NCBI GenBank assembly: GCA_008632985.1
Contig: QPGO01000017.1
Location: forward strand, 558,001 to 622,000
Length of the DNA stretch: 64,000 bases
Source of the DNA: Psammoneis japonica
Taxonomy: Eukaryota
Direction: 5' to 3'
Under the pieces are notes generated by a model, which was not told where the DNA came from, did not search any database, and saw only the letters and a list, made by a program, of their open reading frames with translations. The translations under genes were made by a program, and so were the position numbers. Below, one piece after another: positions 29,540 to 51,329 of the stretch; positions within the stretch are counted from its first letter, which is position 1, and each line of letters begins with the position of its first letter.

Positions 29540-31540
29540 AGATGATGCCCACCCTGCTGGAAGCAGACATGGGACAACAAGATTGTGCAAAGACAAGGAC
29601 AAAATTGACCAAGATGACTGAAAAGCTGCTTGAGCAAACAAGCTCTGTGCATTTGTTCCAGATGCCCTGCACTTGCCATTTTCCTTGGTTCATTGCTGCC
29701 CTTCCTGGTGCACAGACAAGGTCATTCCATGTCACCACTCTTGCCTTGTCATTTCCATGTTTCCATTCTTCCACACACCTGAAATGAGCAAAGGTTTGGT
29801 TCATTCTTGACTGCCAAGGGGCATCTTGAGCAAATGACACAGAACAATGTGCCGGTGACAACCGTTGAACAACATGGAGGTGGGTTGGTTGTGATGGGTG
29901 GGACTCTTGCCACATCGAGCACAGAAGACAAGATGACAAATGACAAAAGAAAGAAGAGGCAATGCAATGACAAAATGAATGACAGGGACAAAATTTTTTT
30001 GGAGAACTGCTGCAAGAACACCTTGTTCACACAACACCAGTTTCTGAATGAAAGGCCATCACCAACAGTGATGGCAGGGTTGCAAAGATTGTGCTGCACA
30101 AAATCAACATGCCTCAAAAAAAGAGAGCATGATTTTGGGAAATGTCGAAGGACAAGGCATGAAGGCAGATGACAAAAAAGAGGAACAATGCAAGTGGGGA
30201 ACTCAAGAAAGGATTCTTCCACAAGCACTGCATCAAAATGGAGTGTGCACAATGTGGGGCAATGGAAGATGGCTCACACACACTGCTTGGTGTTTTGCAA
30301 GTGAACAGGGCATGTGGATCATGAGAAGAGAAACACACAAGCAGATGACAATGCCAAGATGCCATCTCTGGACAAGATGCTAATAAAGGGGGAGAAAGCA
30401 TGAAGGCCCACAGCTGTTTCACCCTGCACTTCCTGCCAGCAGTTGTGGGAAAGATGATGTGGAAGAAGCACTGGCTCATGTCATGACATTGCTTGAACAA
30501 GTTGGCATCTGCGAGCAAAAAGTCATTTGGCCTGCTGGTTTTGGAGAACAGCTGGGGTGAGTGGACACACATCATGCATGGCAAAACAAAGGAAGAGTTG
30601 AGGGAGGAGGCAAAGAAGGAGGGGCTCATTCTGGAGGCAAAGCACAGCAATGGGGAGGGTGATCAAGCAAAAAGGAGTCAGGGTTGGAACAACGCAGGAC
30701 CAGAAAGGTGCAAAGAGTTGGGAAAAACAACTCACAAGCAGAGATTGAACAAGAACACAGATGAGTGCAACAAAGTTTGGTCAAGGCAGTTCTGGGAGTG
30801 CATGGATGGGACAGAAGAGACCCAAGACAATGATGGTGATCAGTTGCAAGCAGGAGACAATGAAGAGGAAGACATCAAGAGAACTTGGATTTGTGGCTCC
30901 CAGAGGTGCCACAACAGGCAGCTGTTTAAATCGACATTTGGCAACAATTTGGCAAAATGAAATCCAACAGAATCAACAGACCAGGCAAATTAAAAAGGAC
31001 AAGAACAAAACATGGATGCGGTGAGGGAGGGCACATGAGAAATGCAACAAGAGCACTAGAGTTGTTTGTGCTGTGGGACCAACATTGCAAACAAGGCACC
31101 CAAATTGTCAATGAAGCACATGGGTGTTGCTCCCTCTGTTAAATGTGGCAAAACCCCAAATGCAATGAGCCCAAAACCCACATTAAAAATGAAAGACAGA
31201 CCCAAATTGTTCAATTGCCCCCCAGGTGAATTGTTCTCCCCTCTCTGATGCCTTGCTGGCAGCAGACATGGGACAACAAGATTGCACAAAGACAAGGACA
31301 AAGTTGACCAAGATGACTGAAAAGCCACATGAACAAACAAGCTCTGTGCATTTGTTCCAGATGCCCATGCATGGGCCATTCTCCTTGGTTCATTGCTGCC
31401 CTTCCTGGTGCATGGACAAGGTCACTCCAGCATGTCACCACTTGCCTTGTCATTTCCATGTTTCCATTCTTCCACACACCTGAAATGAGCTGGGGTTTGG
31501 TTCATTCTTGATTGCCAAGGGTCATCTTGAGCAAATGCAA
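29540..31540. repeat. ~290 bp direct repeats (~29540-29835 and ~31245-31535) flanking a degenerate ORF
   Basis: gcagacatgggacaacaagattg...gctctgtgcatttgttccagatgccc...catttccatgtttccattcttccacacacctgaaatgagc occurs in both. Confidence 0.85.
29930..30900 (+). pseudogene. Degenerate TE-associated ORF, homologous to 61164-62395
   Basis: ASKKSFGLLVLENSWGEW...GWNNAGPERCKEL versus ASDEAPALLTLENCWKSW...SWKDAGIKRFNEL. Confidence 0.55.
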
Positions 31541-33014
31541 ACAGAGTCACATTGTTGTTGCAGCACCAGCTGTGCTGATGCCTGGCACACATTTTGTTCT
31601 GGAGAGTGCAAGAGTCCCAGGACAGGACCCCCACACTCTTTCTTGAACCTTGGTGCTTTAACAAAGACTGGCTGCCATGTCACTTCAAGTCATGTGGTTG
31701 AGCTGGGAGGGAGTTTGACAAATGAGAACAAGAAACAAGCGGCAGCAAACAAATCATCATTTGAATGATTTGTTCTGCCAATCTGGTGGAACACCCAACA
31801 CATTGCCAGGCTCCTTGTCTGCTTCAAAGACTTTCTCCCCCACCGGAGCAACTTCCTCCTCAGCAATGTGGTCATCATCAAAAACAGCAGAAGCAGGGCT
31901 TGAAAGGGCTCCTCAACTTCTTTCACTGGGACAATGATGGTTGCAACATTTGATGCCCTCAAACACACAGATTTTGGTTCCAATCAAGCCCAGCAGCAGT
32001 GCCACAGCCAACTGCTGATCATTTGGGATGGAAATGGCATGGGTGGAACATGGGTGCATCAAAAAATGCAGTTGGCAGCTGCATGGGACAGGGCTGGAAG
32101 AGTGTTGCCAATGTGAGCATGAGAGGCACTTGGCCTGGTCTCCATTTGACACAACCATGACCAGCTCATGCTTTGACAACAACAGCAAAGGGAGCCACAA
32201 ATTGCACACAGGAGTGCAGATGACAAAAATGCCCAGTGCATGGTTCATGCAACAACACAGGGGCAACTGCAGCAGTTCCACAAGCTCAGCCACAAAGAAG
32301 AGCAGCAAGGTCATTGACCTTCACACCATGGCGGCAGTGCAAAAAACAGGCAGCAACACCAATTGGCTTGATGGTGAGGGGGAAATGAAACACAAAAAAG
32401 CTGCAGCAAGCAAAATGAAAGCAGCAACTTTGCAGAGACCCCAACAACAAAAGATGCCAACTCCTTGATCATGCAAACAATCTTTTGCACACAGCAGCAG
32501 CCCACAAGAACACACACAAGTCCCAAAGGAAGGTGCCAACTCATCTGTGGCTCTGCTTGACATGAAATGTGCACAGCATGGGAAGTTCACAGTGTGGCCA
32601 GTGCAACAATGTGGCCATGGCAGAGGCAGTGTCATTGGCAAGCAAAGACAGATTGCATGCTTCAATTCAACAAAAGTTGGGTTTTCTTGGTTCATGAAGA
32701 TGGGGCAGAAATGCACTGGAGAAGCCTGCAGAAAACCCAACAACCCCCTCCTGCTCACAATCATCAATTTTTTGTGGGGCGTTGGTGGTGGATTCTTTGC
32801 ACAGGGTCACCCACAGGAGGCTCTGTGTGAAAGCAGCCAAAGACAAAGGTGCTTGTTGGATTTGTCCACAGCAAACTCTGAAATTGCCTTCAATGTTGGC
32901 TTGCTTTGAGTGGGCCCCATGAATTTTCCTGAAGGAGGGCTCACTGTGACATGACACACATTTTTGCAAAAAACATGGTGCACCTTTGAAGCTGTGCAAA
33001 AAAGATCCTCTCCC

Positions 33015-33159
<145 letters not shown>

Positions 33160-33169
33160 AGACCTGCCA

Positions 33170-33930
33170 TTGCACCGCCATCTTGTCTCACTGCTTCTGA
33201 AGCCTCCAAGGCTTTGGCTGCAATTTTTCTTGCTTTTTTGCAATCCTGAGTTCTTTGGGTGGGTGGCTCTCAGCTTTTTAGCACAGTGCTTTCTTGGCCC
33301 ACAAATGAAGCAACTGTCAACACTTGTCATCAACCACACGGCCAACCCATCAACAAACCACACTTGAGCTGCAAACAGGGATCAGCCTCACACACTCCTT
33401 TCAGGTTTCATTTTCTTGAAAGCCTTGTTTTGACCCCCACCAGAGTGTGGCAGCAGCTTGCCTCTGCCAACGGTCCATTCAAAAATGTGGCATGTTCAAC
33501 AACTTGGCCCAGTGCAGTGCCACAAGCATCAGCACCAGTGCCATCTGAGTGGTGATGTTGTCATTTGCAAGCAGAGCCAGCGAAGCAAGACCTTCGAGAT
33601 TCTTCTTTTTGGCACTTTTCTTCCACTTTTTGTTTGAACTCACAAGCACTTGTGCAAGCCCCAAATTCTTCATTTGCCTTTTTTGTTGCCCAGGTTGAAC
33701 TTGGAATTTGTGCATCCTCCGGGGTGTCCTTGCAACCACTCAGCTCCCAGACGTTGCGGGCAAGCCACAAACAGCTGTGTGTGGTGGTGGTGTGGTGGTG
33801 GTGTGGCCTTCTCCAACTGCTTCATCCCAGCACGGAGCATCAGATGTCTTCATGGCTTGACCATGCTTTGTCACTCTTCATTCTAACGTGTTCTTGAATC
33901 CAACGCCAGGCCCAGCTCCAACCAATGGGC
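33170..33930 (-). mobile_element. Ty1/Copia RT fragment, second copy
   Basis: Homologous to ~27600-28170 and ~44940-45680; DAQIPSSTWATKKANEEFGACTSACEFKQ resembles the Copia RT N-terminus. Confidence 0.75.
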
Positions 33931-34164
33931 AAGGGAAGTTTGACGCAAAAAGGGCAGGTGTCCTGCCAGGCAAAGCCTGTCATCGTGCGGCGCGCCAAAA
34001 ATTCTTGCTGCGGTTGACGGACGTGCGGCACCGCAGGCACCGCAAGCGCCAAAGCAACAGCAACAAGCAATGACAACAGCACAACAGCGGGTCTTCGTTG
34101 TTGCAACCTTGTGAAGTGCAGAGCTTGTCTTTGTTGTGTCTACTCCCAGTTGTGTGTGTGTGCG

Positions 34165-34850
34165 ATGCCTCCGACGAAGAAGCAGAACAGATCCCAAGCT
34201 TCCATTGACAAGCGGAACGCAACAAAGCGGGAGCAGCGAAGGTTGGCAAACGAAGAAAAGGAACGAAAGGCCCTCATCGCTGAAGCGCGCACGAAGAAGA
34301 ACACGGAACGCATGAAGAAGAAACGTGCAGAACAGAAAGCGAACGAGGGAAAGCACTCGAATGTCGGGGAGGTCCCAATGCCAGCTTCCGGTGCTGTCGC
34401 AGCACCGGCCGAAAACTTGTTTGCGGCCATTTTACCCACTCTACCGGTGAACCATCAAACTGCCATTGCTTTGTGGGATCAGCAAAACCAGCTTGACCGC
34501 GAAATTTACCAAGACGAGCTAGTCAGCATCAAGGACGTCGCGAAGGCAGTCGCGAAAGAAGCGTTTGCTCAGATGAGGCAGAGCAAGGCTGATCTCAAGT
34601 CGTCGACTGAAAATCGCACCAAGGAGATCATTGCGCTACTTACATCCTTGCAAGGAGAAGCGGAGACGGCGCCTCACCCAGCGGACGATACGGAGGAAGA
34701 GGAACAAGAGGAAGCGGAAACTCCGAAGAGTGAGCAAATGAAAAGGCATATCAAATACGTGGCATGCACTTTCTTTTCATCATGTAACTCACATATGCAC
34801 GTCGTGCCATTCCTAAATCACAGAATCTTTTCTCTCGCGCGCGGACGGTA
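34165..34850 (+). pseudogene. Unknown Lys/Arg-rich coiled-coil protein, copy 1, 3'-truncated
   Basis: MPPTKKQNRSQASIDKRNATKREQRR...; paralog at 45940; probable intron donor near 34729. Confidence 0.5.
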
Positions 34851-37361
34851 GCGAGGATTCGGTTGATGACCACGATTCTACCACGGACTCCGCTAGAGGG
34901 TGACGATTCTGCCAACAAGTCGAATCTGTAGTATTTGTTGTCATACGGAGCGGTGATTCATTTGCAGAGAAACATCTCGCTGCACTCATCGCAAGCAGCC
35001 CTGGTGCAGTATTTCAACTTGTCGATGGTCCTCGCACCGTCAACATGGTCGGTCCACAAATAGTGTAGGGTAGAAAACGTTGCTATTCTAGTAATCAGAT
35101 TGTATCGGGGAATAACTTTGTTGCTTATGTAGGACGCATTGTGATAGCACTGTGCCGGTACAGTAGTTTAATATGGAATAGTTCATTCCGCGGTTTTTGT
35201 TCGGGAACCCACGTGGCAATTGGCTTTGCGCTTCACAAACTGAAACACGTTGTGCTTCAATTACTGCACAGGCTTCGACATACGGGTAGATCATTCGCAA
35301 AACTACTGTACGTGTACCGTATTCCATACAACGAACTGAATTGATCTTACTCACTCGCTGCAGATAACGCCACACCGGCGTCCTTATCCCTGAGAACGCA
35401 AAGCGGCGTCGATAGAGCTCTGCTTTTTCTACTTACTCCCTGTGACAGAGAACATGTCATCGTGGTAGCGTTGAAATAATGCGCAACACTCCTCGAGAGC
35501 AAAACCCTTCCATTCTCGACTCTTGGCGACGTTTACCAATAATGTTGGCGTCAACAGCCACAATGTATTGACGTCAAAGTCTTTCGGGACGGAGTATGTA
35601 GACACGGTCAATGCTAAACATCCCTGCTTACAAATCGGGAGAAGGCGTACCGATTTGAATTATCATTTACCATCGCTCGGACCTAACGCATACTTTACCT
35701 CTACGTCCAAAAATCGAGGATAGCTACAACTTCCCGACTTTCCAGGACCTGAACAAACGCGTCGGAGCTCGTCTCTCATCCATAGTACTGACCAACGGAA
35801 CCGCACTGCCTTTCAACAAAAATGGGCCTTCTCTGCTTCAGAACATTCTCTTCTTCTCACCAGGTGGAAGAGTATCATTTCCCACCATACCATAGGGAAA
35901 CTGGACCACCAGAACCTTGTCAAAACAAGCTTGCTCCTCCTTTCAATCTACTCGGTGTGCTCGGACGTCGTTCTGGGACCTGGGTTCGTCATTTCCTCTT
36001 GCTTACTGATTCGACACACATTGCACAAAAGAGTGCAATGAGTTGACACAGAAGTCTCTCTTCACCATCTCAGTGTTCAACTCAACACAGAATACCCTGA
36101 ATCTGATGACGTCGAGAGGGTCGTTTAGGTCATGGTGCTGTACCGGGAAATCTAGCCCAATCAACGATCGCTATGGCCCTCTGGAGGCCTCCTCTGAATT
36201 GTGCCATCCGGCGCCCACGGTTGCAGCAGCGTGGTCAGGGGCACTTTTCGCAGCTGCCAGAAAGTTGAGGAGCATGGCAAGCATGGCTTCATGGAACACC
36301 CTTCTGTGGGTTCCGTGAAGGTCCTGTCCATGCAGGAACATGAAGACCAAGGGTCCTCATTGGCTGCAGAGGCACAGAGTGGTGCATCAGATGCTCTCAT
36401 TCAGATCAAGAGGATCAGGGGTGACCCAGCTGGTCCAAAAGGTCATGCCCAGGGTGGACAATTGTGCATTTAAATGTAGATGGGGCAGCTTGTCAACAAC
36501 ATTGGGAGATTGTGAAAGGTCTGCGTGATGCGTGTGTGCTCATTTTTGAAGTGTGGGGGTGGAGAAAAGTGCAGGAAGCACTCCATTTTGGATGGAGAGG
36601 TGGTGCTGATGGTGGAAAAAGATTTGGTGTTGCCAACAAGTGGGCAAAACATGGTCTCTGTCATTGAGTTCAGAGACTTGTGGCTCCCTCAGAGCAAGCC
36701 AGCAGCATTTTGTGGGGAAGTGCCAGTGTGGACCAACTGGCAGCAAACAATGATGCTGCAATGGCCAGAGCAAGGAAGGTGCACCCTGGTTGGTGAGTCA
36801 GCAACTTCTTGGAAGCCACTCAGGGGGGAAGGTCAATGCCATGGGATGGGCTGCTGGTGGGCACCAAACATGGCATCAGCTGGTCTGGGAAAACATGCCT
36901 GGTTGAGCACTTCCAGCCAAGTGTTGCACTGCTGGCAGCAACCAGTGGAAAATGTTCTGGGCAGGAGTTGAGAGATCTTTTTTTCCAACCAACCCACTGG
37001 CTTTGGAGCCATTTTAAGATGTGCTCCAGCTCTGGGTGAGACCCTGCGCTGCTGGACTTTGATGAACATTTTTTGATCATGCACTGCACACACATTTCTG
37101 TGCACATGCTTTTTCACATGCCGGGCAAATGGTGCCAACTTGAGCATTCATCGAGTTGTCTGATTGCAGATTGCATTCCATGCACTCTCTGGAGTGTTGG
37201 CATCATGCAATGTGTGCTGGTGCAATGCTGTGTCCATGGTGATGCAATGACAGGAAGACAGATGTTCATGCAAGTGCTTGCAGATTGTTGCCCTGGCAGT
37301 TAGCAGGTCATCAGTTGTGCATTGCATCACAGTTTTAGACAACAAGCCCATTCAAGAGCTC

Positions 37362-37661
37362 TGTCAGAATGCCTGACTGCACACTGCAAGAACAAACTGA
37401 CAATGTTTGCCAGCATGTTTGGACTGATGGAGAGTTTGGTTGTTGCAGCAAAGCAAATTCACAAATTGTGAGTGGAGGAGCAATCTCCATTTGCACTGAG
37501 CATTGAATGGATCCCCTTTCAACACTCCACAGAGGGATTCTCCTGAACATTTTGCAGTCACTTGAAATTGCAGTCAAGTCCGCAATGCCCTCATGACTGA
37601 ACATCTTCTGAACATCTTCTGCCAATGTTGTCAACTTGAGCATGATGTTGTTTGTTTGACA
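37362..37661 (-). repeat. 3' LTR of the Copia element
   Basis: TG...CA termini; homologous to 43334-43648; preceded by the polypurine tract. Confidence 0.85.
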
Positions 37662-40600
37662 CTCCCTCTTGTTCAGGACATTGGGCAGCTGCCCTTGAAA
37701 ATGAGCCAGCCAATCAGATGCCTGCAATCTGAACAGGTTTTTGAGCACTTGACACCCAGCAGACATTCAGCAAGTCCTGCAAGTGCCACCCACCCATTGC
37801 CAGAGGATGCAATGAGAGAAGAACATCTGCACCCACCAGTTTTGCAAAACAATCAACAAGCTGCTCTTTGTGGCCAGCACCAATGGGATGGATTGACATT
37901 TCTCTCCTGGATGCACAGTCCCTAAAAAGGCAGAGTTTTGCACTCAAATGTTTGGTTCTTGGATGGTGCTTGTGGGTCTTTGCAATTTCCAGAGCACTGC
38001 TGTTGTCCTCAAACATGTGACAATGAACCGTTGGCTTGCAGGCATGCACTGGGAAGCCATTGTGCTTCATTTCCTCAAGCAATTCTGCAAGTGAGAGGTG
38101 TTGCACTCCTCAATGCATTTGACAAGCCACTGTGCTCACTCTTGGTTGAACTCAAAATGCAACCTCTGTTTGAAGTTGAGATTTCCAAAGGATGAGACAT
38201 CTGGCACATGCACAATGATGTGTCCACATCTGGACCTGGCAGCATCACAACCAGCAGCTGCCTCTTGAGGATTCTAGTTGCTGCTTGAGTTGTCATCAAC
38301 ATGTGCTTCTAAGTCTGTGCCCTCTTGGGGTTCAAGCACAGTGCGTTTGTCTCTTGTGTCTTTGAGACAGCATTCTGGCCATTTGAGTGCTTGACCATTT
38401 TCATTTTGGGGTCTGCCATGAAACTTGAACATTGGTGGGGGGTGCCTGCAATGTCACTCCTTGTGGCCTTTTCCAGATGATTTAGTTTGCCATCAATGGA
38501 TCTGCTCAGTTGCTTTGTCTGTCAAACATTTTGGAGTTGGAGTGCCTGGATGGCAATTTTGATGATGAGGCTGGAGTGTCCTTGGACTTTGCACAGTCAC
38601 CATGAAGCTTCATGTCCTTTTGCATCTGGTCAATGAGGTGTGGTTGTGCAAGATGCAAGGTGCCATCACTTTTTCTTTTGATGTTGATGCCAAGGAAGTC
38701 TTGTGCATGTCCCTCTGCCATGATGTCCAGCTTGGTTGCCTTCAGTTCCTTGATGGATTGATTTTTTTGCCTTGACAAAGCACACACACTTGTTGACCTT
38801 GGACTGAGTGAAGCTGGGCTTCTTTGTTAACTTGTTGACCATGCATTTGTTCCATGCTCATCTGGCTTGTTTCTGCCCACACAGGCTCCCATGCAGGCAC
38901 AGTTCAAAGTCTTTTGAATCACCTTGATCAATTTCAAATCTCTTTTGGAATCTGCTTGTAAATTTTGTGCTCTGTTGGAGCCTGTGGGAAGCCCCCACAC
39001 ATGATCCAGCAGCTGCTTGGCATGCCAATTGTGCACTGCTGCCAAGGCATGTGGCACATGCATTGAGTTCTGGGGTGCAAGCGGGGCATGTGTTTTGCTG
39101 CAGTCAATCCCTCTGAGATGGGCAATTTGTAACATGGTGTGGAGAGATTGCTGCCAGTTAAAAATCTGTCCCTCAACATCCCCTTTGGTGCAAGCACCAA
39201 GCTCAGCTGTCAGAACTTGTGCCAACTGCTCAACTGATTGGCTCTGTTGCCCTGATCTTGTGTCACCTCTGTTGCCCTGGGCACACTGGGCAGATCAAAC
39301 TTGCAGGTGCTTCTGGAGATTTTGCCTGTTGATTTGGCTGCACCAGCAGCAAACCAACTGCTGCAGCATCACCACCATGCTCATCAGCTTTGGGTGGCCC
39401 CAGTGTTTTGTTGAAATTTTTAACATGGCTTGCATTGGACCTCTCCTCTTCTTTGATGCTCCCTCCAAGGGAGGCATTGCTCCCTCTTGCTGAGGAATGC
39501 TCTGCTTGTTGAAAGCTTCAGGTGTGAGTGGCATCTTGTTCTTGCCTTGGGTTGGCTCATTTGCCTCCCTTTGACTTGTGAATCTCCTGGCTTTTGTTTG
39601 CCAAATTGAACCAAATTTGTCCTTTTGATTAATTGGAAGCTGGGGTCATGCTGCACATGGAGCTGGGGACTTGTGTGTGCTGTTGCTCTTTTTGGAACTA
39701 AGGAGATAATTTTGCCACACATCAGGCTTGTCCCCAAGCATGTTCCAACCCTTGAGCATTGCTTCCTTTTTGTGACATTGACAGTCTTGGTTTGGAGCTG
39801 GTGGCTGGTCATCCAGTGCATGCACTGGGCATCCAAATGGGATCCAGTTCATGAGATTGCTTGAGATGTCTGTTTGCATGTGTGGTTGAGTCAGAGTGTG
39901 GTGCTCAGGATTTTGGAAGCTGGGCATTTCATTGACTGCATTGTTTGCTGTTTAGATGGCACTTGGCAGCAACACTCAAGGGCCATTGTTGGTTGGCATG
40001 CATGAGCATGCCATGGGCATGTTCCTGCAGCTCATGGATGCAGCATTCAGCAACAGCATTCATGTGGTGTGTGTTGATGCCTGCAAATGTTGGGCCTTGT
40101 CCTTGGTCCTGACATGCTTGAACCCATTGCTTTGCCTTTAATGTCCCATCATCTGCATGGCAAGCAAGGATTTTGTCTCTGCAACTTCTCACCATCAACT
40201 CAAAAGATTTCTTGCCTTCTGATGTCTTCTCCATGCTCATTGCTGTCTTTTGCAAATGCACATGGCAGAAGTGGGAGCATTGGTCAACACATGCTGTCAC
40301 ATGCTTGCATCTCAGCTTGGTTGTGAGAAACCCTGCCATTTGGGCAAACGATCCCAGTCTGAGTGAGGCCATTGTTTGGTCCATGGACACCACTTGTCTG
40401 GGCAAAGTGTTGACTTTTGTGGATTGCAAGCCTTTTTGTTGCAGTCTTGCCACTTGCACTCAGTTGCTTTTGGAAAAACATGCACAAGGAGCATGCAGAT
40501 GTGTTGCATTTTGCCAAATGTTCTTTTGGGGCAATTCCCTGTGCTGTCATTGCTTGCAGATTCTGGAATGAGGCATGTGTCCACATTTTTTGGTGTCTCA

Positions 40601-43333
40601 ACAACTCTGCCAATGCATTTTCTTTCTGCCAATCTTCCTCATATGTCGTGACTTGGGGCAGACTGGTGCTGCACCTGTGCCCTTGGGTGGTCCATCTAGA
40701 TTGAATTGAGTGACAACTGGAGATTGTCCTCCAACCCTGAGGTGTGCTTGTGCATCATTTATTGCTTGGCACAGTGCAAGATGGCCTTGATCAGATTCAA
40801 GGTCCAGGTGCATGTCACCAACCGAGAAACATCGGATTCTTGTTCCTCATTGTCTTCCTCTTTATCACTCACAATGTTTGCCTTGTTTGCTTTGACAGGA
40901 TCATTGTCTTTTCAGTGGCATCATGTGCTCCAAATTTGGTGCAAAAGGCTTTGAACTGTTGGCAGCCAGGAGCCAGGAGCATGGCCAAATGTTGCAACAT
41001 TGGTTTCTGCACCAAGGGGAACTGCAAGTTTATTTTTCTTCTGATTCCAGCACACCAGAGTGCATTGCTTGAAATCCATGATTTTCCCTGTGCCCTCAAT
41101 TGGCTCACAGTCCTTTTGTGTCTTTGCCCAGTGTTGTGGACTTGGTGGATGGATCTCACCATCAGGCACACAGTGCAAATTTGGAATCTTAAATTAGTGA
41201 GCAGCCCCATTTTCATTGCATCATTGCCAGATCAATGTGCCCATCATGACTCCTGTCACTCTTGACCCTCCCAATCCTTTCACACTGCTTGCTTGCTTGG
41301 AACAAGCTTGCTGACAAAGTCAGTGCGGCGTTGGATGCACATCAGGTGCACTGGTTGTCCATGCCTGTGGGTCTCGAATCCACACCAAATTGAGCCACAT
41401 TCTCTCATTTGAGAGCATCATTCTGGGCCATCATGCAGATTGCCAGGATGGCCCCAGTGCTGCTGTCATGCCCATTGAATGTCTTTGGCAACATTTGCTG
41501 TTGAACTTGCTCAATGGCTCTTGGGCTTGCCTGATTCTCCCTCTTTGAGATTGCTTGGCTGTGGACAGTCAATCAACTCTTCTTCTGACATGTCAACCAG
41601 CTCAGTTCCTGTCCATTGCATGCTTGACTTGGCTTGCTGCAACAATCTTTCACGTTTCTTCCAACCCTTTGATCATGGAATGCATTGCAGAACTGGGTTG
41701 GCATCAGGACATTTGCAAAAGAGAACAATGAGATGGAAAATGACAGCAGTCAGCAACACACAAGCTCCGGTGACAAATTTGATTGGAGCACCTTTTGCAA
41801 TTGCTCCCCTCTTGACAATTCACAGACTGCGATGGAGATCCAATTGCAGGACACAACTGTCTGCACAAATTGCATTGGCAGCAGCAACAGTGGCACAACC
41901 ACAAATGCAGTTGCTTGCCACATTGCAAACAACATCATGCAGAAAGCAAATCAATGGATTCCCTGATCAGAGTTGGGTTTGCCAACTTGCTCAACAAGTC
42001 ATTCTTCATTTGATGATTCAATCTCATCTGCAATGGCAGTGAGAGCTTCAGGCAGTTTCAGCAACTTGAGGTCCTTTGGAATCTTGGTTGTCAGTGCCTC
42101 ATCTCTCTTTTTGGGAGGACATTTTGCACCTCCAAGTTTCCAAGTGAGGAAGGCTTTTTCCTTTGCAGGCCAACAGTTTGTGGATCTGCTGCGTTCCATC
42201 ACATTTTCTGCCCATGTCCTTGTGACAATGACAGCACAGCTTGTCATTCCAGCATTGGGGCTCATCAAGCTGATTGTTTGTGGGTCTCTCAATTCTCCAA
42301 CCAAGCAAAAGGCTTCTAACCATGAGTCTTCTGTCCTCCTTTCTTTTGACTCTTGGCATTGCCTCTTTCTTTTTAGCATCAGATTTTTTGCCACAAGATG
42401 ATTTCTTGAAGGCATCAACTTTGGCTTCTAGAGCCAGAATCTTCTCCTTCTTCAGGGATGGAGTGCTCCACTCATCACTCTGCACCATCTTCTTGCACTT
42501 GTTTGCCACAAGTTTATGAGTTTGTTGGGGTCCATGTCATTTCCTTCATCATGCTTGCAACAGATGCAATTTACAAAGGTTTTGTCAGATGCTGCAAGGT
42601 GCCCCTCAAATTAGTTCAATTTTGAGATCTTTCACAGTCTTGCTGCCATGAGACTTGAGAGCTTGCAACAGGACTCAGGAGGAGCATGCATTGATTGAAT
42701 TTTGTGATTTCACTTGATGCTGTGCCAACGTGCTTGTCAAGATTGCTGAGTTTCATTCTGATGCTTGTCACAGCTGCATTGGTGTTGAGAGGTGACTTTC
42801 TTGAAAATTGTTGCCTTCAACAGAAGGTTTCCCAATGGACATGTCTTGTTGTTCTTGAGAATTTTACACTGTTTCCCCCAGACCGGAATTCTTGTCTTTC
42901 CTTCTTCAGAAAGTGCACTCACAGGAAGGTGACAAAGAGCATCCTTGTGTCTTGTGCTGGCCTCACCAGTTGGTTGATGCACATGTGCTTGCAGCCATTG
43001 ATGGATGAGGTCCTTTTCAATTTGACCACAGTGTGTCAATGAATTGGCGGCATCAAATGTGGTGTCCATTGGATCATGAGGAATCATCAAGATCCCATTT
43101 TCTTCATTCCAACCATTTTTGGCAGCTCTGTCTTCAAGAGTCTTGAGGAACTGAACAAGTTTCTCCTGTGAACAGTCAAAGCCATTTGGGGCATGATTTT
43201 CTTGACTGCCTTGTTGCAAATGGCTCAATGTGCCTTTTCCACAAAGTCAAGAATGCCTGTGATGGCCTGAGCAGGTGTCAGAGAAAATGCCATGATGCCC
43301 AACCATCTGTTCTGTCTCACCACAGAGGAAGCT

Positions 43334-43648
43334 TGTTAAAATGCCTGACCACTGAATGTCCAAACTAACTGACAATGTCAGCCAGTGTGTTTCAACTGAT
43401 GGAGAGTTCAGCTGTCACAGGAAGAAAAATCACAAATTGTGAGCATGGAGCAGAGCAATTTTCCACTCACTTTGAGGAGCATTGAACGGATCACTTTCAA
43501 TGCTCAATGGAGGAATTTGGAACATTTTGCAGTCCCTTCAAATTGCAGTCAATCAATTCACAGGGGCCATTGGTCAAATGTCCACAATGTCCTCATGACC
43601 AAACATCTGCCAATGTTGCAACTTGAGCATGATGTCATTCATTTGACA
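43334..43648 (-). repeat. 5' LTR of the Copia element
   Basis: Shares aactgacaatg, ctgatggagagtt, aacattttgcagtc, aaattgcagtcaa and aacttgagcatgatgt with 37362-37661. Confidence 0.85.
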
Positions 43649-43768
43649 GAGAGCACAATGTTTTCAGTGTTGTCTGTTGCCACACATGGCAGCAGCTTCA
43701 AAGCTGTGTTGTTTGTGCTGGTTGTGCATCATTGTTGCAGCTCATTTCCACCTCACTCAGCTCTCAGC

Positions 43769-44118
43769 ATGGCAAATGGTGGCCCTCTTCCTCTTGAGTT
43801 GACCAACAAAGCTGTCAGATCACAGCTGTGGATGTTGATGTGAAAAAAAAGACATTGTTGGCTCACTTCACCTCCAGGTTTTGGCATTTGTGCAAGTTGC
43901 AGCACACGCTTGTTGCCAAATCTTTCTTTTCAACAGATGAGTTGTTCCTTTTTGCTTTGCTTCATTGCTTTGTGGCCATGAAAGTGAATCTTTTCTTGGA
44001 TGATGCAATCAATTGTGCACCCAAGGCAAGAAACAAAGGACGAGTCACTGTGAGATGCTGGCAAGCAAATTTTGCTCAACAGGAATCAGACAAAAATGGT
44101 GCTCTGGGGGGGGGGGGT
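43769..44118 (+). pseudogene. LSm5 pseudogene (genomic duplicate retaining the intron)
   Basis: LPLELTNKAVRSQLWMLM* and VNLFLDDAINCAPKARNKGRVT; premature TGA and frameshifts. Confidence 0.9.
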
Positions 44119-44129
44119 TCATGACCATT

Positions 44130-45680
44130 GACTGTGACAGAATCCTCACACAACCATGTTTCACAAATTGCCAGTGGCCACATCAATGACAGTGTGTGGG
44201 AAACCACAGCAGCATCACAAACAAGCATGTTGATTTGGACATGCTTGTGAAATTTCAATGTTGTGACAGCTCTTGCACATCTCCAACCATGCTCAAAATG
44301 CAACTCACTCTTGGCTTGGTGCAGTCCTGTCTTAGCACCAGCAACAAACTCTGACATGTTTGCCTTTGCCATGCATTCTGCATGCTTCAAATTTCATGTT
44401 TGCCATTGCAACCAAGTCACAAGACAATTCTGCCATGTGACAGACAATGCAGAGTGGTTGGTGTGCATTCATCATGACCAACAAATGCTTCAGCATGTTT
44501 CTCAAACAGCTGGCCTGCCAAAGTCTTGGCAATCAAATGATGTGGACCACCCACCCACACTCCTCCCACAGTCTTTGGATCTTTGGCATGCTCAGTCACT
44601 CTTGTTGTGAGCAATCTCAAATGAATGATTCTTGCTGTCACCCCATGCTTTGCCCTCAGCTTCAAACACAATCTTTGATTTGGAGTCACCAGCATCATGG
44701 TGCACTGAACAGATTCCATGCTTTGCCACTCATGAACACAGATCCTCCTGCAGCAAGATGCAATTGGTGCTGTTCCTTCCAGCAACTCAAAGTCATCTTC
44801 AAAACTCCAGCTGACAGCTGGCAGAATCAATTTTTGCCCTTTTGTTCTCTTGGTCAATGTCAATTTTGCATCCCAAATTTATTTGAGTTCTTCTGTGTTG
44901 TCACAATCAAACAAATTCTTCATCTGCTTCATTGTTTGCTTCTTGAACACAGTGCTTTGGTCCACAAATGAACCAGTCATCAACCCATGTTGTCAACTGT
45001 GTGGCTGACCCATCAAAAACCACTTGAATTGCAAACAGGGATTGGTGTTGCTCTTTTTATCTTTCACTTTTATGGAAGCTTTGTTGATTTCCCACTGGAG
45101 TGCAATGGCAGCTTGCTTCAGCCCATGTGTTGTTTGCAATGAAGATGGCACAACATCTCCTGAATGGAGTCTTTCAAATCCTTGTGACACTTCCATGTGT
45201 GCAGTTGTTGTTCATTCTCTAAAATTGGGCCATTGAAAATGCTCCACATGCATCCAACAACTGGGCCCAGTGCACATCAGTGCCAACAATGCTGCCCATG
45301 CAGTGACGTCATTTGCAGCTGGCACAATTTGTTGAGCTCCTTGCAGTGCTCTCCCTCCACTTGTGTTTTTGAACAATCTCCACAAGCATTTGTGTGAGCC
45401 CAAAATTCTCAATTTGCCTTCTGTTTTATCACCCAAGTTGAGCTTGGAATTCTTGCATCCTCCGGAATGTCCTTGTGATTGCTCAGCTCCCAGACGCTGT
45501 GTGCGCTGCTGCAAACTTGTGACGCACCCTCTTCTCCAGCTGGTGCTTCACAGCACTCCCAGGCAGCGTGGAACGTTGGCTGTCTTCACAGCTTCAACAT
45601 CATGTTTCATGACTTTTAATTCTGAAGTGTTCTTGAATCCACCGCCCAGTCCAGCTGCACAGCTCCAACCAATGGCTGAT
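44130..45680 (-). mobile_element. Ty1/Copia remnant, third copy
   Basis: Colinear with 26600-28170 and 33170-33930; AKTLAGQLFEKHAEAFVGHDEC; MEVSQGFERLHSGDVV. Confidence 0.78.
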
Positions 45681-45939
45681 CAGGCAATTCTGGCGCAAAA
45701 AAGGGCAGGTCCCGCCCCCCATCCAGGCGAAGCCTGCATGGACACGCACTGTACACTTGAACACCTGTGTCGTCGCGGCGCGCCAAAAATTTTTGCCGCG
45801 GCGGTCGACGGTCGCGCGGCACCGCCGCATCTCCTCGCTCTGCAAGCAGCAAGCAGTGACAGGTGACAGCGTAGCGGGTGTTCTCGTTGTTGTGCAGTAC
45901 TGTCTTTGTTGTGTCTACTCCCAGTTGTGTGTGTGTGCG

Positions 45940-47325
45940 ATGCCTCCAAAGAAGAAGCAGAACAGATCCCAAGCTTCCATTGACAAGCGGAACGCAACAA
46001 AGCGGGAGCAGCGAAGGTTGGCAAACGAAGAAAAGGAACGAAAGGCCCTCATGGCTGAAGCGCGCACGAAGAAGAACACGGAGCGGATGAGGAAGAAACG
46101 CGCAGAAGAGAAAGCGAACGAGGGAAAGCACTCCAATGCTGGCGAGATCCCAGTGCCAGCCTCCGGTGCTGTCATGGAACCCAGTGCCGCTGCTGCTGTC
46201 GTGCCCGCTGCCGGAACGGCGGTCGTGCCCGCTGATGCTGCTGTTGAACTACCGACCGAAAACATGATTGCGGCCATTGTACCCACTCTTCCTGTGAACC
46301 ATCAAACTGCCATTGCTTTGGTGGCTCAGCAGAACGAGTTTGACCGCGCAATTTACCAAGACGAAGCAGCCAGCATCAAGGACGTCGCGGAATCAGTCGC
46401 GGAGGCAGTCGCGAGTAAAGTCGTGAAAGAAGCGTTTGCTGAGATGAGGCAGAGCAAGGCTGATCTCAAGTCGTCGACTGAAAATCGCTCCAAGGAGATC
46501 ATTGCGCTACTTACGCCGGCCAAATCGGCGCCGACTCCTCTCCGTCCGGCGGAGAACATTGAGGAGATTCCTCCAACTCCGGCTCCCACGGCGGTCGCCA
46601 CGAATGAAATCGTCTGAAAGACGATGAAGCGTTCATGACGCCACCCTCGCAAGGAGAAGAGGAGACGGTGCCTCACCTGGCGGACGATACGGAGAAAGAG
46701 GAACAAGAGGCAGTGGAAACTCCGAGGAGTAAGTAAATGAACAGGCACATCAAATACATGGCATATACTTTCTTTTCATCATGTAACTGACACATGTGCG
46801 TCGTGTCATTCCGACATCACAGAATCTTTTCTCTCTCGCGTTTCGGGTGCCGTCTCCTATGTTTTTACTCCTAGAAAGGAGGAGACTGATGCTCAAGGGT
46901 CTGAAAATTCTTCGGACGGTAGCAAGGAATCGGTTGATGACCACGATTCTACCAGGGACTCCGATACAGCGGGTGACGATTTTGCCAACGATTCCGAGGT
47001 TTCTGTGGTCGAGCAAGATTTTGCCGAGGGCGCTGACTCCGAGAATGAAACTTCTGTCGAAGGTGAAGAGGCCTCTGTTGGCGAGGAGGGGTTCCTCATG
47101 GACAATTCTGATGTCAACAAATCCGACGGCTCTGATTCGGAGGATGATGAGGATACCGACGATGGTATTGGTGTCAACAATTCCGGCGACGCCGATTCGG
47201 AGTCTTCGTCCAGTGGCACCGATTCGACGGATGGCCATTCTGTCGACAGCGTGCCGATGACCTCCCCGGTCTGCAACAGGTTCAATCTTCGTCCTCGGCG
47301 TGCCGCCAAGAACTACATCTCCTGA
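45940..47325 (+). pseudogene. Unknown coiled-coil protein, copy 2, with acidic Asp/Ser/Glu-rich 3' part; stop at 46617 suggests disruption
   Basis: MPPKKKQNRSQASIDKRNATKREQRR...; paralog of 34165; acidic ORF ending FNLRPRRAAKNYIS at 47325. Confidence 0.5.
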
Positions 47326-48565: not shown

Positions 48566-49699
48566 CCATCTCATTTCGAAAAATGCCACACGTCTATCTT
48601 GTAACGACAACAAGCGTAGGTTGGAAGCAATCGTCAAGGGAAATAGCTTTTCACGAGCGCTCTTGTTGATGTGCCAACACTGCCCCTTCTCCCGTAAGAG
48701 GCTTTCTTGTTTCACGCCGTCATCTGACCAAGTCAACTTGCACTGTAGTCTCACTTTTGCAATGTGCACCAAGCTTGGCTGCGCAGACCCGGCGATAACA
48801 ATTCGAAACATAGGACAGTAATTGCACCGTTGTTTGTTCAACTTTGCCTTGCAACATGCCGCACACGGTGGGTCATCAACTGCATGTCCTCCAAGCGGCG
48901 ATTTCCACTGGCTGGAGATTTTATCTTTTCGCTCCAGAGCAACCGACTCGTCTCTTCTTAAAAATGTGCTGTCTGCTGTCTAGCTAGAAGAATCCGTAAT
49001 GGGCACTGAAGCTCCCGCATCATTTTCTTTTAAAGACCTTTGTGCGAACTGCCTCATTTAAGACCAGATGTTTCGAACGTCGACACAAACGCTGCTCGGT
49101 GGTGGTGTGATGCGTGATTGTCGGAGGGATTGAGCTCGAATTATCGCAAAAGCACGATCAACGTTCATTCCGCGCTTTTTCTGCTGTTTCACCTGACGCC
49201 AACTGGCCCAGCTCTGAGCAACAGTTTCTTTTGCAGCCGAACGACGAATTTGTAAGATCGAAGAATCGGCAGGTGCGTGTGCAGTGTGTTGTCGGAGACA
49301 GCTGGCTTGAAACGAATAAGACGTCATGGTCGATTTTCGGGCTGGGGGTGATGCGATGTGATGTGCGGCCTTCGAGCGTCCGTCAGGCGGCGTGGAGCGT
49401 CCGACCTGCCTCCGTAAAATCCGGGTATCTTTCTGCTGAGGTGTGCGCATTTTGTGCGCATTCTGTGCGCATTTTGTGCGCAGGCCTTGCACGCGGCATT
49501 TTGATGTGTTTCAGGACAAACCTGTTGTCATGCGTGGGACTCCTTCTTCAGCTGGAAGACAACAGTTCTTAAATGCAGACAATTTGTGACAGACACACTC
49601 ACTCATTCAGCTTGCGATCAGCAGCTGGCTGGGCTTGGCCCCGCAGCCTTGCTGCCTGGGCGGCGCAGCTGGCAGCTGTGCACTTCCCGCTGGGTGTCT

Positions 49700-51320: not shown

Positions 51321-51329
51321 TCAAACAGC

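What the first reader, a model, noticed from the sequence alone, without database searches (positions are those of the whole stretch)
37362..43648. Surviving TpA sites are mostly YTAR, implying a 5'-TAY-3' target preference
Seen (hand count, approximate): about 20 of 29 residual TA sites in the Copia element are TTAA, CTAG, TTAG or CTAA (e.g. ~37922 cctaaa, ~38274 tctagt, ~38827 gttaac, ~40696 tctaga, ~41189 cttaaattag). About a quarter would be expected by chance. YTAR is the only class with no TAC/TAT on either strand. It is not immune (cttagg>ctcagg in the 24/58 kb pair). Established: TadA acts on UACG in tRNA and its DNA-editing derivatives favour a 5' T, while Pol eta targets WA including AA. 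Inference: an enzyme-like motif preference, fitting a deaminase better than general mutation bias or biased gene conversion.
Basis: partly seen in the sequence, partly recalled or inferred. Interest (0 to 1): 0.8.

Follow-up and report, generated by a model that had tools for sequence, protein, structure and literature searches.

The report
Context-biased TpA loss in diatom transposons
In the dead transposons of this diatom almost every TA has been turned into TG or CA, and the few TAs left sit mostly in a YTAR context because a TA followed by a pyrimidine is destroyed several times faster, the kind of fingerprint a DNA-modifying enzyme would leave.

Summary
Confirmed. The Copia-type element (37362-43648, minus strand) holds 30 TA: 20 YTAR, 9 mixed, 1 RTAY, p<=4e-5 against three nulls. 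The skew recurs in the other 31.9 kb of TA-depleted DNA (84/195 YTAR, against 184/1137 in undepleted DNA).

Three paralogue pairs with one TA-rich and one TA-poor copy give the direction. TA goes to TG or CA by transitions: 38% of A/T inside TA changed, against 8% elsewhere, with transversions flat. AA is not raised and there is no general W>S drift.

Per adenine, A>G is 51% with a 3' pyrimidine and 31% with a purine (p=0.001). Rate ratios are 2.2-2.4 from the pairs and 3.3-5.5 from survivor counts. In mixed sites the base pair next to the pyrimidine flank is the one changed (37:19), and the products show the same bias. Conserved Tyr codons of the element now read Cys or His (10 of 16).

A 5'-TAY-3' (= 5'-RTA-3') preference is therefore real but quantitative. 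A deaminase is plausible, not shown; thymine modification fits equally. My searches found no paper describing this.

The parts
37362..43648 (-). Degenerate Ty1/Copia-type LTR retrotransposon, the element of the finding. It holds 30 residual TA, 20 of them YTAR.
   Evidence: Pfam gives only a weak RVT_2 match (E=0.32). A phmmer search of its RT-RNaseH stretch finds 1049 relatives, best E=8e-50, many of them 1300-1440 aa polyproteins. tblastn of 31 of these covers 37786-41292.
37362..37661 (.). Left LTR (TGT...ACA), with no TA left.
   Evidence: It aligns with 43330-43648 at 79% identity. Differences are mostly transitions, with TG opposite CA at the same dinucleotide.
43334..43648 (.). Right LTR, with 2 TA left, both YTAR (43337 TTAA, 43366 CTAA).
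17798..23179 (.). TA-depleted segment 1: TA o/e 0.07, CG o/e 0.55. From 20.0 kb on, only TA is depleted.
   Evidence: Of 25 TA, 11 are YTAR, 12 mixed and 2 RTAY.
27096..34468 (.). TA-depleted segment 2: TA o/e 0.06, CG o/e 0.20.
   Evidence: Of 28 TA, 17 are YTAR, 10 mixed and 1 RTAY. It contains a second Copia fragment at 27153-27818.
35926..46530 (.). TA-depleted segment 3, which contains the element and its depleted flanks.
   Evidence: Of 59 TA, 29 are YTAR, 24 mixed and 6 RTAY.
49182..64000 (.). TA-depleted segment 4: TA o/e 0.12, CG o/e 0.50.
   Evidence: Of 113 TA, 47 are YTAR, 59 mixed and 7 RTAY.
24462..25911 (+). TA-rich copy of paralogue pair P1. Its partner is 56951-58393 on the minus strand, which is TA-poor.
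   Evidence: 78% identity, TA 101 against 24, CG 69 against 58. Used to polarise the changes.
56951..58393 (-). TA-poor copy of pair P1.
   Evidence: Of its 24 TA, 16 are shared with the TA-rich copy.
26099..27265 (+). TA-rich copy of pair P2. Its partner is 43694-44706, which is fully depleted.
   Evidence: TA 46 against 1, CG 65 against 2. None of 44 aligned TA is kept.
43694..44706 (+). TA-poor copy of pair P2.
23184..23979 (+). TA-richer copy of pair P3. Its partner is 58394-59188 on the minus strand.
   Evidence: 93% identity, TA 20 against 6.
58394..59188 (-). TA-poor copy of pair P3.
   Evidence: All 6 of its TA are shared with the partner.
19899..21457 (-). Protein-kinase gene relic lying inside DNA that is depleted of TA but not of CG.
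   Evidence: Pkinase E=9e-26 on 19899-20555. The N-lobe and C-lobe are in different frames. The conserved Tyr before APE reads His (GTGVHRAPE) and VILYxLLTG reads VILHCLLTG (motifs recalled).

Best explanation
The YTAR skew is a survivorship footprint. In this diatom, repeat-rich and silent stretches of nuclear DNA undergo a strand-symmetric transition process that turns TpA into TpG or CpA. It is an A:T>G:C change confined to the TA step.

Each of the two A:T pairs of a TA step is hit independently. The rate is about 2-5 times higher when the adenine is followed by a pyrimidine (5'-TAY-3', which reads 5'-RTA-3' on the other strand). YTAR has two slow halves, RTAY two fast halves, and the mixed classes one of each. 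As depletion proceeds, what remains therefore becomes YTAR-rich.

Shown here: the direction of change, its restriction to TA, the flank effect, which base pair is hit, the additivity of the two halves, and independence from CpG decay.

Inferred: that the agent is an enzyme acting on DNA in place. Deamination of adenine to hypoxanthine by a deaminase-fold protein is the most economical chemistry (my odds about 40%). These data cannot tell it from modification of the paired thymine.
For: 1. Counts. The element has 20 YTAR, 9 mixed and 1 RTAY. All depleted DNA has 104/105/16 of 225, against 184/614/339 of 1137 in undepleted DNA (chi-square p=1e-26).

2. Polarised pairs P1-P3.
- TA kept: YTAR 7/30, YTAY 6/38, RTAR 7/46, RTAY 1/49.
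- Fisher test of YTAR against RTAY in the two partly depleted pairs: 6/16 against 1/33, p=0.003.
- Per adenine, A>G is 77/150 with a 3' Y and 37/118 with a 3' R, p=0.0012.
- The competing-risk fit gives kY/kR of 2.2, 2.4 and 2.2 in the three pairs. The pooled likelihood-ratio p is 4e-4, and four separate rates fit no better.

3. Which base pair is hit. In mixed sites the adenine next to the pyrimidine is the one changed, 37 against 19, p=0.022. On the product side, YTGY/RCAR against YCAY/RTGR is 2585:1673 in depleted DNA and 682:494 where only TA is depleted, against 979:907 in undepleted DNA (p=1e-10 and 1e-3).

4. Specificity.
- Transitions affect 121/317 A/T inside TA, 113/1404 A/T elsewhere, 74/326 G/C in CpG and 91/1160 other G/C. 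Transversions are 5-9% in every class.
- Control pairs with both copies undepleted show no TA excess (12/127).
- AA, CA and GA contexts run at 0.03-0.13, against TAY at 0.45-0.48 and TAR at 0.28.

5. Additivity. The -ln(survival) of mixed sites is predicted at 2.61 and observed at 2.81 in the element; for all depleted DNA it is 2.20 predicted and 2.16 observed.

6. Polarity inside the element. Of 16 columns where Copia relatives agree on Tyr, the element has Cys 5, His 5 and Tyr 1. By contrast, Cys is kept in 11/13, Asn in 12/15 and Gln in 16/19. Tyr makes up 4 of 6285 codons over the three frames.

7. Retention rather than novelty. Of 31 TAs in the depleted copies, 22 are shared with the TA-rich copy. 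The 9 others are 2 YTAR, 6 mixed and 1 RTAY.

8. Action in place. Segmental duplicates, a kinase relic and LTR-LTR differences all carry the signature. A>G and T>C are balanced: 64/57, 44/46 and 15/12.
Against: - The ratio from the pairs (2.2-2.4) predicts only 38% YTAR at the element's level of depletion, against 67% seen (p=0.002). Something more contributes: the +2 effect, rate heterogeneity, noise in the pair alignments, or new sites.
- Polarity in the pairs rests on taking the TA-rich copy as ancestral. There is no outgroup.
- Only 10 of the element's 30 TAs could be interpreted against Copia relatives. About 6 are compatible with retention (only one, a Tyr codon, is unambiguous) and 3-4 look new.
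- The Tyr-codon test of direction has no power (YTAY: 2 Cys, 2 His).
- The baseline for ancestral contexts is mostly genic DNA, although the TA-rich repeat copies give the same class shares (30/84/49 of 163).
- This is one 64-kb window. No genome is held, no enzyme gene has been seen and no chemistry measured.
Confidence: 0.75

Rival explanations
1. The process and footprint are the same, but the enzyme attacks the thymine. A TET/JBP-type dioxygenase, or another thymine modifier, acts on T in 5'-RTA-3' in silenced repeats, and the modified base (5hmU or 5fU) is occasionally read as C, giving T>C.
For: The mutated base pair is the one next to the discriminating flank, which reads equally as A in TAY or as T in RTA. 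In dinoflagellates 5hmU is enriched at repeat elements, overlaps 5mC there, and earlier work found thymine replaced preferentially in TA and TC (PMC11572971, passages seen). Here TA loss and CpG loss also share the same regions.
Against: The outcome is almost purely transitional: 121 transitions against 19 transversions at TA. That fits deamination better than an oxidised base removed by repair. TC is not affected (TC o/e 0.96 in the element). That 5hmU is mutagenic towards C, and that diatoms carry it, is not established by anything I saw. TA loss also occurs where CpG is intact (20-23 kb).
Confidence: 0.17
2. No dedicated enzyme is involved. The cause is a regional mutation bias of replication or repair in heterochromatin, for example a translesion polymerase or lack of mismatch repair, that happens to favour A>G at TA.
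For: The depleted state is regional and includes non-transposon DNA such as the kinase relic. One copy of a repeat can be spared while the other is depleted (pair P1). This fits a chromatin domain effect.
Against: Thirty-eight percent of A/T inside TA changed, against 8% elsewhere, with an added flank effect and no rise in transversions. AA is not raised, unlike the Pol eta WA pattern (recalled). There is no general W>S drift. Boundaries are sharp at the 100-bp scale, for example 6 TA per 100 bp falling to 0 at about 17.7 kb. TA loss outruns CpG loss (TA 101>24 while CG 69>58).
Confidence: 0.12
3. The residual TAs are mostly new mutations, and the YTAR skew reflects how TAs are created (from TG, CA, TT or AA), not how they are lost.
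For: In the element 3-4 of about 10 interpretable TAs look new, for example TTA where 27 of 27 relatives have Phe, and TAA where 11 of 15 have Arg. The deepest pair keeps none of 44 old TAs, and its single TA is new and YTAR.
Against: Precursor contexts are not YTAR-rich (YTGR 0.23-0.28, YCAR 0.22-0.25). The 9 new TAs in the pairs are 2 YTAR, 6 mixed and 1 RTAY. Of 31 TAs in the depleted copies, 22 are retained old sites. Old sites are kept in the order YTAR > mixed > RTAY. Even at creation-loss equilibrium the skew needs context-dependent loss.
Confidence: 0.05
4. The changes were made on RNA (ADAR-type hyper-editing of double-stranded transposon transcripts) and fixed by reverse transcription.
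For: A>G hypermutation of retroelements through RNA editing is known in animals (recalled). The element is a retrotransposon.
Against: The two LTRs, identical at insertion, now differ at 21% of positions, mostly by transitions with TG opposite CA. The flanks, segmental duplicates and a kinase relic are depleted in place. Both strands are hit equally. AA is not raised and a 3' pyrimidine is favoured, unlike ADAR neighbour preferences (recalled).
Confidence: 0.02
5. Sequencing or assembly artefact: modified bases in repeats are miscalled so that TA and CG are read as TG or CA.
For: Depletion is near total and confined to repeats, where DNA modification is expected. The window differs from the run's contigs mainly by A>G and T>C (22 of the 28 differences listed between 33.3 and 45.8 kb).
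Against: Contigs of a public run with word depth 60-300 reproduce the depleted sequence with 0-17 differences per piece of 0.8-2.5 kb. Frames are broken, and Tyr reads Cys or His in a way that matches real mutation. The run's technology is not on record, so this is not airtight.
Confidence: 0.02

Closest known systems
Repeat-induced point mutation (RIP) of ascomycete fungi
   Same: Region-limited, dinucleotide-specific, transition-only hypermutation of repeats in place. It ruins coding capacity and has sharp borders.
   Different: RIP makes C>T at CpA and so creates TpA (the RIP papers appeared only in the listings; the description is recalled). Here TpA is destroyed by A:T>G:C. One copy of a repeat can be spared (pair P1). 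The organism is a diatom.
CpG decay by deamination of 5-methylcytosine
   Same: It occurs in the same regions and yields the same products, TG and CA. Conserved Arg codons of the element read His, Cys or stop.
   Different: The target dinucleotide and base differ. It shows almost no flank effect on survival. It is separable in space and time: at 20-23 kb TA o/e is 0.08 with CG o/e 0.78, and pair P1 lost TA 101>24 while CG went 69>58.
TadA/ADAT2-type adenosine deaminases and the laboratory adenine base editors derived from TadA
   Same: The natural substrate is A34 after the invariant U33, that is a 5'-UA step, and in bacterial tRNA-Arg it is followed by C (recalled; Tad2/TadA wobble deamination is stated in PMC3239186, passages seen). 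The footprint here needs a 5' T and favours a 3' pyrimidine.
   Different: They act on tRNA; activity on DNA was obtained by directed evolution (recalled). Here a G at +2 has no effect, T equals C at +1, both strands of duplex DNA are affected, and no gene is in hand.
5-hydroxymethyluracil at repeats in dinoflagellates (TET/JBP homologues)
   Same: A base modification that sits at TpA (and TpC) and at repeat elements alongside 5mC, and is linked to transposon silencing (PMC11572971, passages seen).
   Different: That paper does not report it as mutagenic in the passages I saw. TC is untouched here. The lineage is different, and the modification is not known to me in diatoms.
APOBEC3 hypermutation of retroelements
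   Same: A deaminase with a dinucleotide preference leaves a context-biased footprint in retroelement copies (PMC4866542, abstract in the listings).
   Different: It is C>U on nascent single-stranded cDNA, strand-asymmetric (G>A) and occurs before integration. Here the change is A:T>G:C, strand-symmetric and occurs in place.
Pol eta WA mutagenesis (second phase of somatic hypermutation)
   Same: It mutates A preferentially after T.
   Different: It also targets AA and gives many transversions (recalled). Here AA is at background and transversions are not raised.

Membership tests
Ty1/Copia LTR retrotransposon (the element itself) | Copia-type reverse transcriptase, RNase H and integrase homology | tested here: met
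   Pfam RVT_2 is only E=0.32. However, phmmer finds 1049 relatives, best E=8e-50, including 1300-1440 aa polyproteins, and tblastn covers 37786-41292.
Ty1/Copia LTR retrotransposon (the element itself) | Two direct LTRs ending TG...CA | tested here: met
   37362-37661 and 43334-43648 both run TGT...ACA and are 79% identical. No clear target-site duplication was seen (read).
Fungal RIP | C>T at CpA, so that TpA accumulates and CpA/TpG fall | tested here: not met
   The opposite is seen: TA o/e 0.07, CA 2.0 and TG 1.74.
Fungal RIP | Triggered by duplication, with both copies mutated | tested here: inconclusive
   Pair P1 has one copy at TA o/e of about 1.0 and the other at 0.12-0.25. The timing of the duplication relative to the mutation is unknown.
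Fungal RIP | RID/Dim-2 type cytosine methyltransferase homologue required | not testable with these tools
   No genome is held for this window.
TadA/ADAT-like adenine deamination footprint | Target adenine directly preceded by T (U) | tested here: met
   A>G is 0.28-0.48 after T, against 0.03-0.13 after A, C or G.
TadA/ADAT-like adenine deamination footprint | 3' context C-G, as in the bacterial tRNA-Arg loop (UACG; recalled) | tested here: not met
   C and T at +1 are equal (42/83 and 35/67; one search printed these rows before its error). TACG at 8/14 against TACH at 34/69, p=0.77.
TadA/ADAT-like adenine deamination footprint | Pure A>G outcome (hypoxanthine pairs with C) | tested here: met
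   At TA there are 121 transitions and 19 transversions, and the transversion rate equals background.
TadA/ADAT-like adenine deamination footprint | A deaminase-fold gene and hypoxanthine in repeat DNA | not testable with these tools
   No genome. Stramenopile-specific predicted nucleic-acid deaminases exist, including one fused to SAM and Tudor domains (PMC3239186, passages seen). This is a lead only.
Pol eta WA signature | AA targeted as well as TA, with frequent transversions | tested here: not met
   AAN runs at 0.03-0.12, the same as CAN and GAN. Transversions at TA are 6.0% against 5.4% elsewhere.
GC-biased gene conversion | All W>S changes favoured regardless of neighbour | tested here: not met
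   W>S outside TA is 8.0%, against S>W outside CpG at 7.8%. G+C of depleted DNA is 0.44-0.51, like the rest of the window.
ADAR-type RNA hyper-editing | Changes made before integration, on transcripts | tested here: not met
   LTR-LTR divergence, flanks, segmental duplicates and a kinase relic carry the signature in place.

The most novel reading that the evidence does not exclude
Diatoms possess a genome-defence or heterochromatin-linked DNA editor that deaminates adenine in duplex nuclear DNA at 5'-TAY-3'. It would be a natural counterpart of laboratory adenine base editors and an A:T>G:C mirror image of fungal RIP. It erases TA (and with it Tyr codons, TATA-like and AT-rich signals) from transposons faster than methyl-CpG decay does.
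Probability: 0.35. Interest if true: 0.95.

Novelty: new variant of a known kind. Interest (0 to 1): 0.8.

Why it matters
A repeat-limited process that removes TpA by A:T>G:C transitions was not found in print. Seven full-text searches returned no description, though the library lacks most subscription journals.

The flank preference is the first mechanistic handle on this process:
- It says the agent reads three to four bases (T-A-Y, with a weaker effect at +2).
- It says the agent acts on each strand independently.
- It says the agent changes the base pair next to the pyrimidine flank.

That rules out biased gene conversion, Pol eta-like synthesis and RNA editing. It narrows the search to enzymes that modify A in TAY or T in RTA.

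If the enzyme is an adenine deaminase acting on double-stranded DNA, it would be a new class of natural DNA editor and a new kind of transposon control. In practice the footprint also offers:
- a simple index (TA o/e together with the YTAR share) for dating and mapping silenced DNA in diatom genomes;
- a warning that ORF finders will call long false ORFs in such DNA, because TAA and TAG stops are erased.

Tried and rejected
- Whole genome: none is held, so there was no genome-wide NTAN table, no many-copy consensus and no search for the enzyme.
- Earlier notes of this scan: nothing for this genome or for these words.
- Rfam: no match in the window.
- Sequencing runs: two DNA holders from one sample, and no RNA holder listed.
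- Laying run contigs at 80% likeness to obtain other copies of the element: only 40 of 571 difference rows were shown. These were mostly from the locus's own contigs, so they could not be used to build a copy-to-consensus spectrum.
- Direction test on conserved Tyr codons (Cys = TGY against His = CAY, by preceding base): only 4 informative YTAY sites, split 2:2.
- Search for an intact paralogue of the kinase relic to polarise changes at protein level: the best hit was only 40% identical.
- Looking for the same signature elsewhere: 11 of 150 Copia relatives have under 1% Tyr, and 4 of those are also rich in Cys and His. Their sources are unnamed. The one metagenome locus retrieved with such a protein (L001, 73% identical) is not TA-depleted, with TA o/e 0.89. 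Generality beyond this window is therefore untested.
- Protein Atlas gave only the family of Nop56.
- A preprint on a Bacillus deaminase toxin proved to concern cytidine, not adenine.
- A Nitzschia genome paper and two Phaeodactylum papers say nothing on TA depletion in the passages found.
- An extended UACG-like motif was tested and rejected.


Full report
WHAT THE WINDOW IS

The first 17.8 kb carry ordinary, intron-poor eukaryotic genes: an alpha/beta hydrolase, Nop56, a THOC3-like WD40 protein and a PSP1-domain protein. The Nop56 ORF is 76-86% identical to diatom proteins, and the named hits are Pseudo-nitzschia, Nitzschia inconspicua and Stephanodiscus. The window is therefore diatom nuclear DNA. 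No whole genome is held for it.

From 17.8 kb on, 38.2 kb in four segments have lost nearly all TpA (o/e 0.06-0.12) and, to a varying degree, CpG (o/e 0.20-0.55). TG and CA are in excess. Undepleted DNA has TA o/e of about 0.5-0.9 and CG of about 1. Borders are sharp at the 100-bp scale.

THE ELEMENT

Region 37362-43648 is a degenerate Ty1/Copia-type retrotransposon on the minus strand.
- It has LTRs of about 300 bp (TGT...ACA) that are now only 79% identical.
- Pfam barely sees it (RVT_2, E=0.32).
- A full HMMER search of its RT-RNase H stretch, with X at stops, finds 1049 relatives, best E=8e-50. tblastn with 31 long relatives covers 37786-41292.
- Over its three frames it has 4 Tyr codons in 6285, but 339 Cys and 299 His.

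CHECKING THE OBSERVATION

The element has 30 TA: 20 YTAR, 6 YTAY, 3 RTAR and 1 RTAY.

The expected YTAR share is 0.16-0.30, depending on the null model: TA sites of undepleted DNA, a uniform model, first-order neighbours, or the contexts of TG/CA precursors. The binomial p is 9e-10 to 4e-5.

The skew is not peculiar to the element.
- The other depleted DNA has 84 YTAR, 96 mixed and 15 RTAY of 195.
- Undepleted DNA has 184, 614 and 339 of 1137 (p=1.6e-20).
- Each of the four depleted segments shows it.

The gradient by the base after the A, folded over both strands, is A > G > C > T. Shares relative to undepleted DNA are 2.13, 1.16, 0.74 and 0.33. There is a weaker enrichment of A at +2 (1.69) and nothing by +4. 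CpG survivors show almost no such flank effect.

DIRECTION OF CHANGE

The window contains natural experiments. Three paralogue pairs have one copy with normal TA content and one depleted copy:
- 24462-25911 against 58393-56951: TA 101 against 24, CG 69 against 58.
- 26099-27265 against 43694-44706: TA 46 against 1, CG 65 against 2.
- 23184-23979 against 59188-58394: TA 20 against 6.

Taking the TA-rich copy as the older state, TA becomes TG or CA.
- Transitions affect 121 of 317 A/T inside TA, but 113 of 1404 A/T elsewhere.
- They affect 74 of 326 G/C in CpG and 91 of 1160 other G/C.
- Transversions are 5-9% in every class.
- Control pairs in which both copies are undepleted show no TA excess.

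That the depleted state is the derived one is shown independently at protein level.
- Of 16 alignment columns where Copia relatives agree on Tyr, the element reads Cys in 5, His in 5 and Tyr in 1. Conserved Cys, Asn, Lys and Gln are mostly kept.
- Conserved Arg often reads His, Cys or stop, which is the CpG signature.
- A protein-kinase relic at 19899-21457 has His where kinases carry the Tyr before APE (motif recalled).

THE FLANK EFFECT, MEASURED THREE WAYS

1. Fate of old TA sites in the pairs.
- Kept: YTAR 7/30, YTAY 6/38, RTAR 7/46, RTAY 1/49.
- In the two partly depleted pairs, YTAR 6/16 against RTAY 1/33, p=0.003.
- Per adenine, A>G is 77/150 before a pyrimidine and 37/118 before a purine, p=0.0012. 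C and T behave alike, and so do A and G.
- A competing-risk likelihood treats each TA as two targets. It gives kY/kR of 2.2, 2.4 and 2.2 in the three pairs, with pooled p=4e-4. Four separate rates fit no better.

2. Survivor counts against the density of each class in undepleted DNA.
- The ratio is 5.5 in the element and 3.3-3.6 elsewhere.
- The loss of mixed sites is what the sum of one slow half and one fast half predicts: 2.61 predicted against 2.81 observed, and 2.20 against 2.16.

3. Products.
- If the A next to the pyrimidine is the one changed, YTAY gives YTGY and RTAR gives RCAR.
- These products outnumber YCAY/RTGR by 2585:1673 in depleted DNA, and by 682:494 where only TA is depleted.
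- In undepleted DNA the figure is 979:907 (p=1e-10 and 1e-3).
- Directly, in mixed sites of the pairs, the changed base pair is the one next to the pyrimidine flank in 37 cases against 19, p=0.022.

The base on the far side of the T has no effect of its own beyond this competition.

Equal depletion of all NTAN contexts is rejected (above).

New sites do not explain the skew.
- Of 31 TAs in the depleted copies, 22 are shared with the TA-rich partner. The 9 others are 2 YTAR, 6 mixed and 1 RTAY.
- Precursor contexts are not YTAR-rich.
- In the element itself only about 10 of 30 TAs can be judged against relatives. About 6 are compatible with retention (one Tyr codon unambiguously) and 3-4 look new.
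- Even if many are new, a creation-loss balance still needs context-dependent loss to give the skew.

AA>AG is not raised (0.03-0.12), so this is not a WA (Pol eta-like) pattern.

LIMITS

- The ratio from the pairs under-predicts the element's 67% YTAR. It predicts 38% (p=0.002), so the true preference is probably nearer 3-5, or other factors add to it. One candidate is the protective A at +2: 24/77 against 90/191, p=0.02.
- YTAR is not immune. The deepest pair kept 0 of 9.
- There is no outgroup, only one window, and a mostly genic baseline. The TA-rich repeat copies do have the same class shares (30/84/49 of 163).

WHAT KIND OF PROCESS

The process has these properties:
- It acts in place. 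LTRs have diverged after insertion, with TG opposite CA at the same dinucleotide, and flanks, segmental duplicates and a gene relic are all affected.
- It acts on both strands equally: A>G against T>C is 64/57, 44/46 and 15/12.
- It is regional, with sharp borders.
- It can spare one copy of a repeat (pair P1).
- It is independent of CpG decay and faster than it.

General W>S drift, and so biased gene conversion, is excluded. RNA editing before integration is excluded by the in-place evidence.

An artefact is unlikely. High-depth contigs of a public run reproduce the depleted sequence, although the technology of that run is not on record. The run's contigs differ from the window mostly by A>G and T>C (22 of the 28 differences listed between 33.3 and 45.8 kb). 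Four of these are at TA, and eight create a CpG in the run's contig. They may be alleles, and they cannot be polarised.

MECHANISM

Shown: a three-to-four-base preference (T, A, then Y, with a weak +2 effect), a pure transition outcome, and independent action on the two halves of the palindromic TA step.

Inferred: an enzyme that flips out and modifies one base.

Adenine deamination to hypoxanthine gives exactly A>G. tRNA adenosine deaminases of the Tad2/TadA clade act at the wobble position (PMC3239186, passages), which follows the invariant U33 (recalled). A relative turned to DNA would therefore start with a TA preference. The same paper predicts stramenopile-specific nucleic-acid deaminases, one of them fused to SAM and Tudor domains. 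This is a lead only.

The rival is modification of the thymine in 5'-RTA-3'. In dinoflagellates 5hmU made by TET/JBP homologues is enriched at repeats together with 5mC, and older work found it at TA and TC (PMC11572971, passages). Against the rival here are the purity of transitions and the untouched TC.

My odds are:
- adenine deamination, about 40%;
- thymine modification, about 17%;
- a polymerase or repair bias of silent chromatin, about 12%;
- the remainder spread over other or unknown causes.

COMPARISON AND NOVELTY

The process works like RIP: it is repeat-limited, dinucleotide-specific and transition-only. It is not RIP, because the dinucleotide, the base change and the lineage all differ. 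It is also not CpG decay, APOBEC, ADAR or Pol eta mutagenesis.

Seven full-text searches and passages of four diatom or deaminase papers gave no description of TA loss in diatom repeats. Subscription journals and bioRxiv supplements were not searchable.

I file it as a new variant of repeat-directed hypermutation. If the enzyme proves to be a DNA adenine deaminase, it would be a new category.

Noticed in passing
window 19899-21457 (minus strand): A protein-kinase gene relic (Pkinase E=9e-26) lies in DNA depleted of TA but not of CpG. Its two lobes are in different frames, and conserved Tyr positions read His. The TA-loss process is therefore not limited to transposons.
   Followed up: partly
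window 20000-23179 and 49182-63000: TA depletion occurs without matching CpG depletion (TA o/e 0.08-0.16 with CG o/e 0.58-0.78), whereas 27-33.5 kb and 36-45.5 kb have lost both. In pair P1, TA fell from 101 to 24 while CG fell only from 69 to 58. The two decays are separate, and TA loss is the faster.
   Followed up: partly
window 26099-36222 versus 43694-48564: A segmental duplication in several collinear blocks (71-89% identity) brackets the Copia element. The first copy carries an extra ~5.4 kb (28.2-33.6 kb). Parts of both copies are undepleted (34.5-35.9 kb and 46.5-49.2 kb). A run contig joins 36160 to 48555 and another joins 46246 back to 34403, which suggests alternative arrangements or further copies.
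   Followed up: no
window 26099-27265: The border between normal and depleted DNA (about 27.1 kb) falls inside a duplicated unit whose other copy is depleted throughout. The depleted domain is therefore not defined by the repeat unit's ends.
   Followed up: no
pairs P1-P3 (coordinates in parts): The fate of CpG also looks flank-dependent, but in the opposite sense: YCGY gives CA 17 against TG 4, and RCGR gives TG 8 against CA 10. The cytosine preceded by a purine is thus hit in 25 cases against 14. This was not tested further.
   Followed up: no
window 22305-22791 and 33016-33159: There are tandem repeats: about 4.8 copies of a 101-bp unit (84-91% identity), and a short high-copy array that blocked read laying.
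   Followed up: no
window 33327-45753: Contigs of run X1 at this locus differ from the window at 28 listed places. Of these, 22 are A>G or T>C in the direction window to run, 4 are at TA, and 8 make a CpG in the run's contig. They may be allelic differences carrying the same two signatures. A further 531 difference rows were not shown.
   Followed up: partly
window 18000-64000, both strands: Because TAA and TAG are erased, stop-to-stop ORFs of 110-350 aa abound on both strands of dead DNA: 128 ORFs of at least 110 aa end beyond 17.8 kb. Of the 107 scanned, only the kinase relic matched Pfam above its cut-off. Gene finders would over-call here.
   Followed up: partly
proteins P0158, P0167, P0241, P0243 (relatives of the element from other unnamed assemblies): Some Copia relatives in public data have under 1% Tyr with raised Cys and His, for example P0158 (919 aa: Tyr 0.76%, Cys 3.2%, His 4.9%). 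This is as expected if TA-depleted copies exist in other assemblies. Their DNA could not be fetched.
   Followed up: partly
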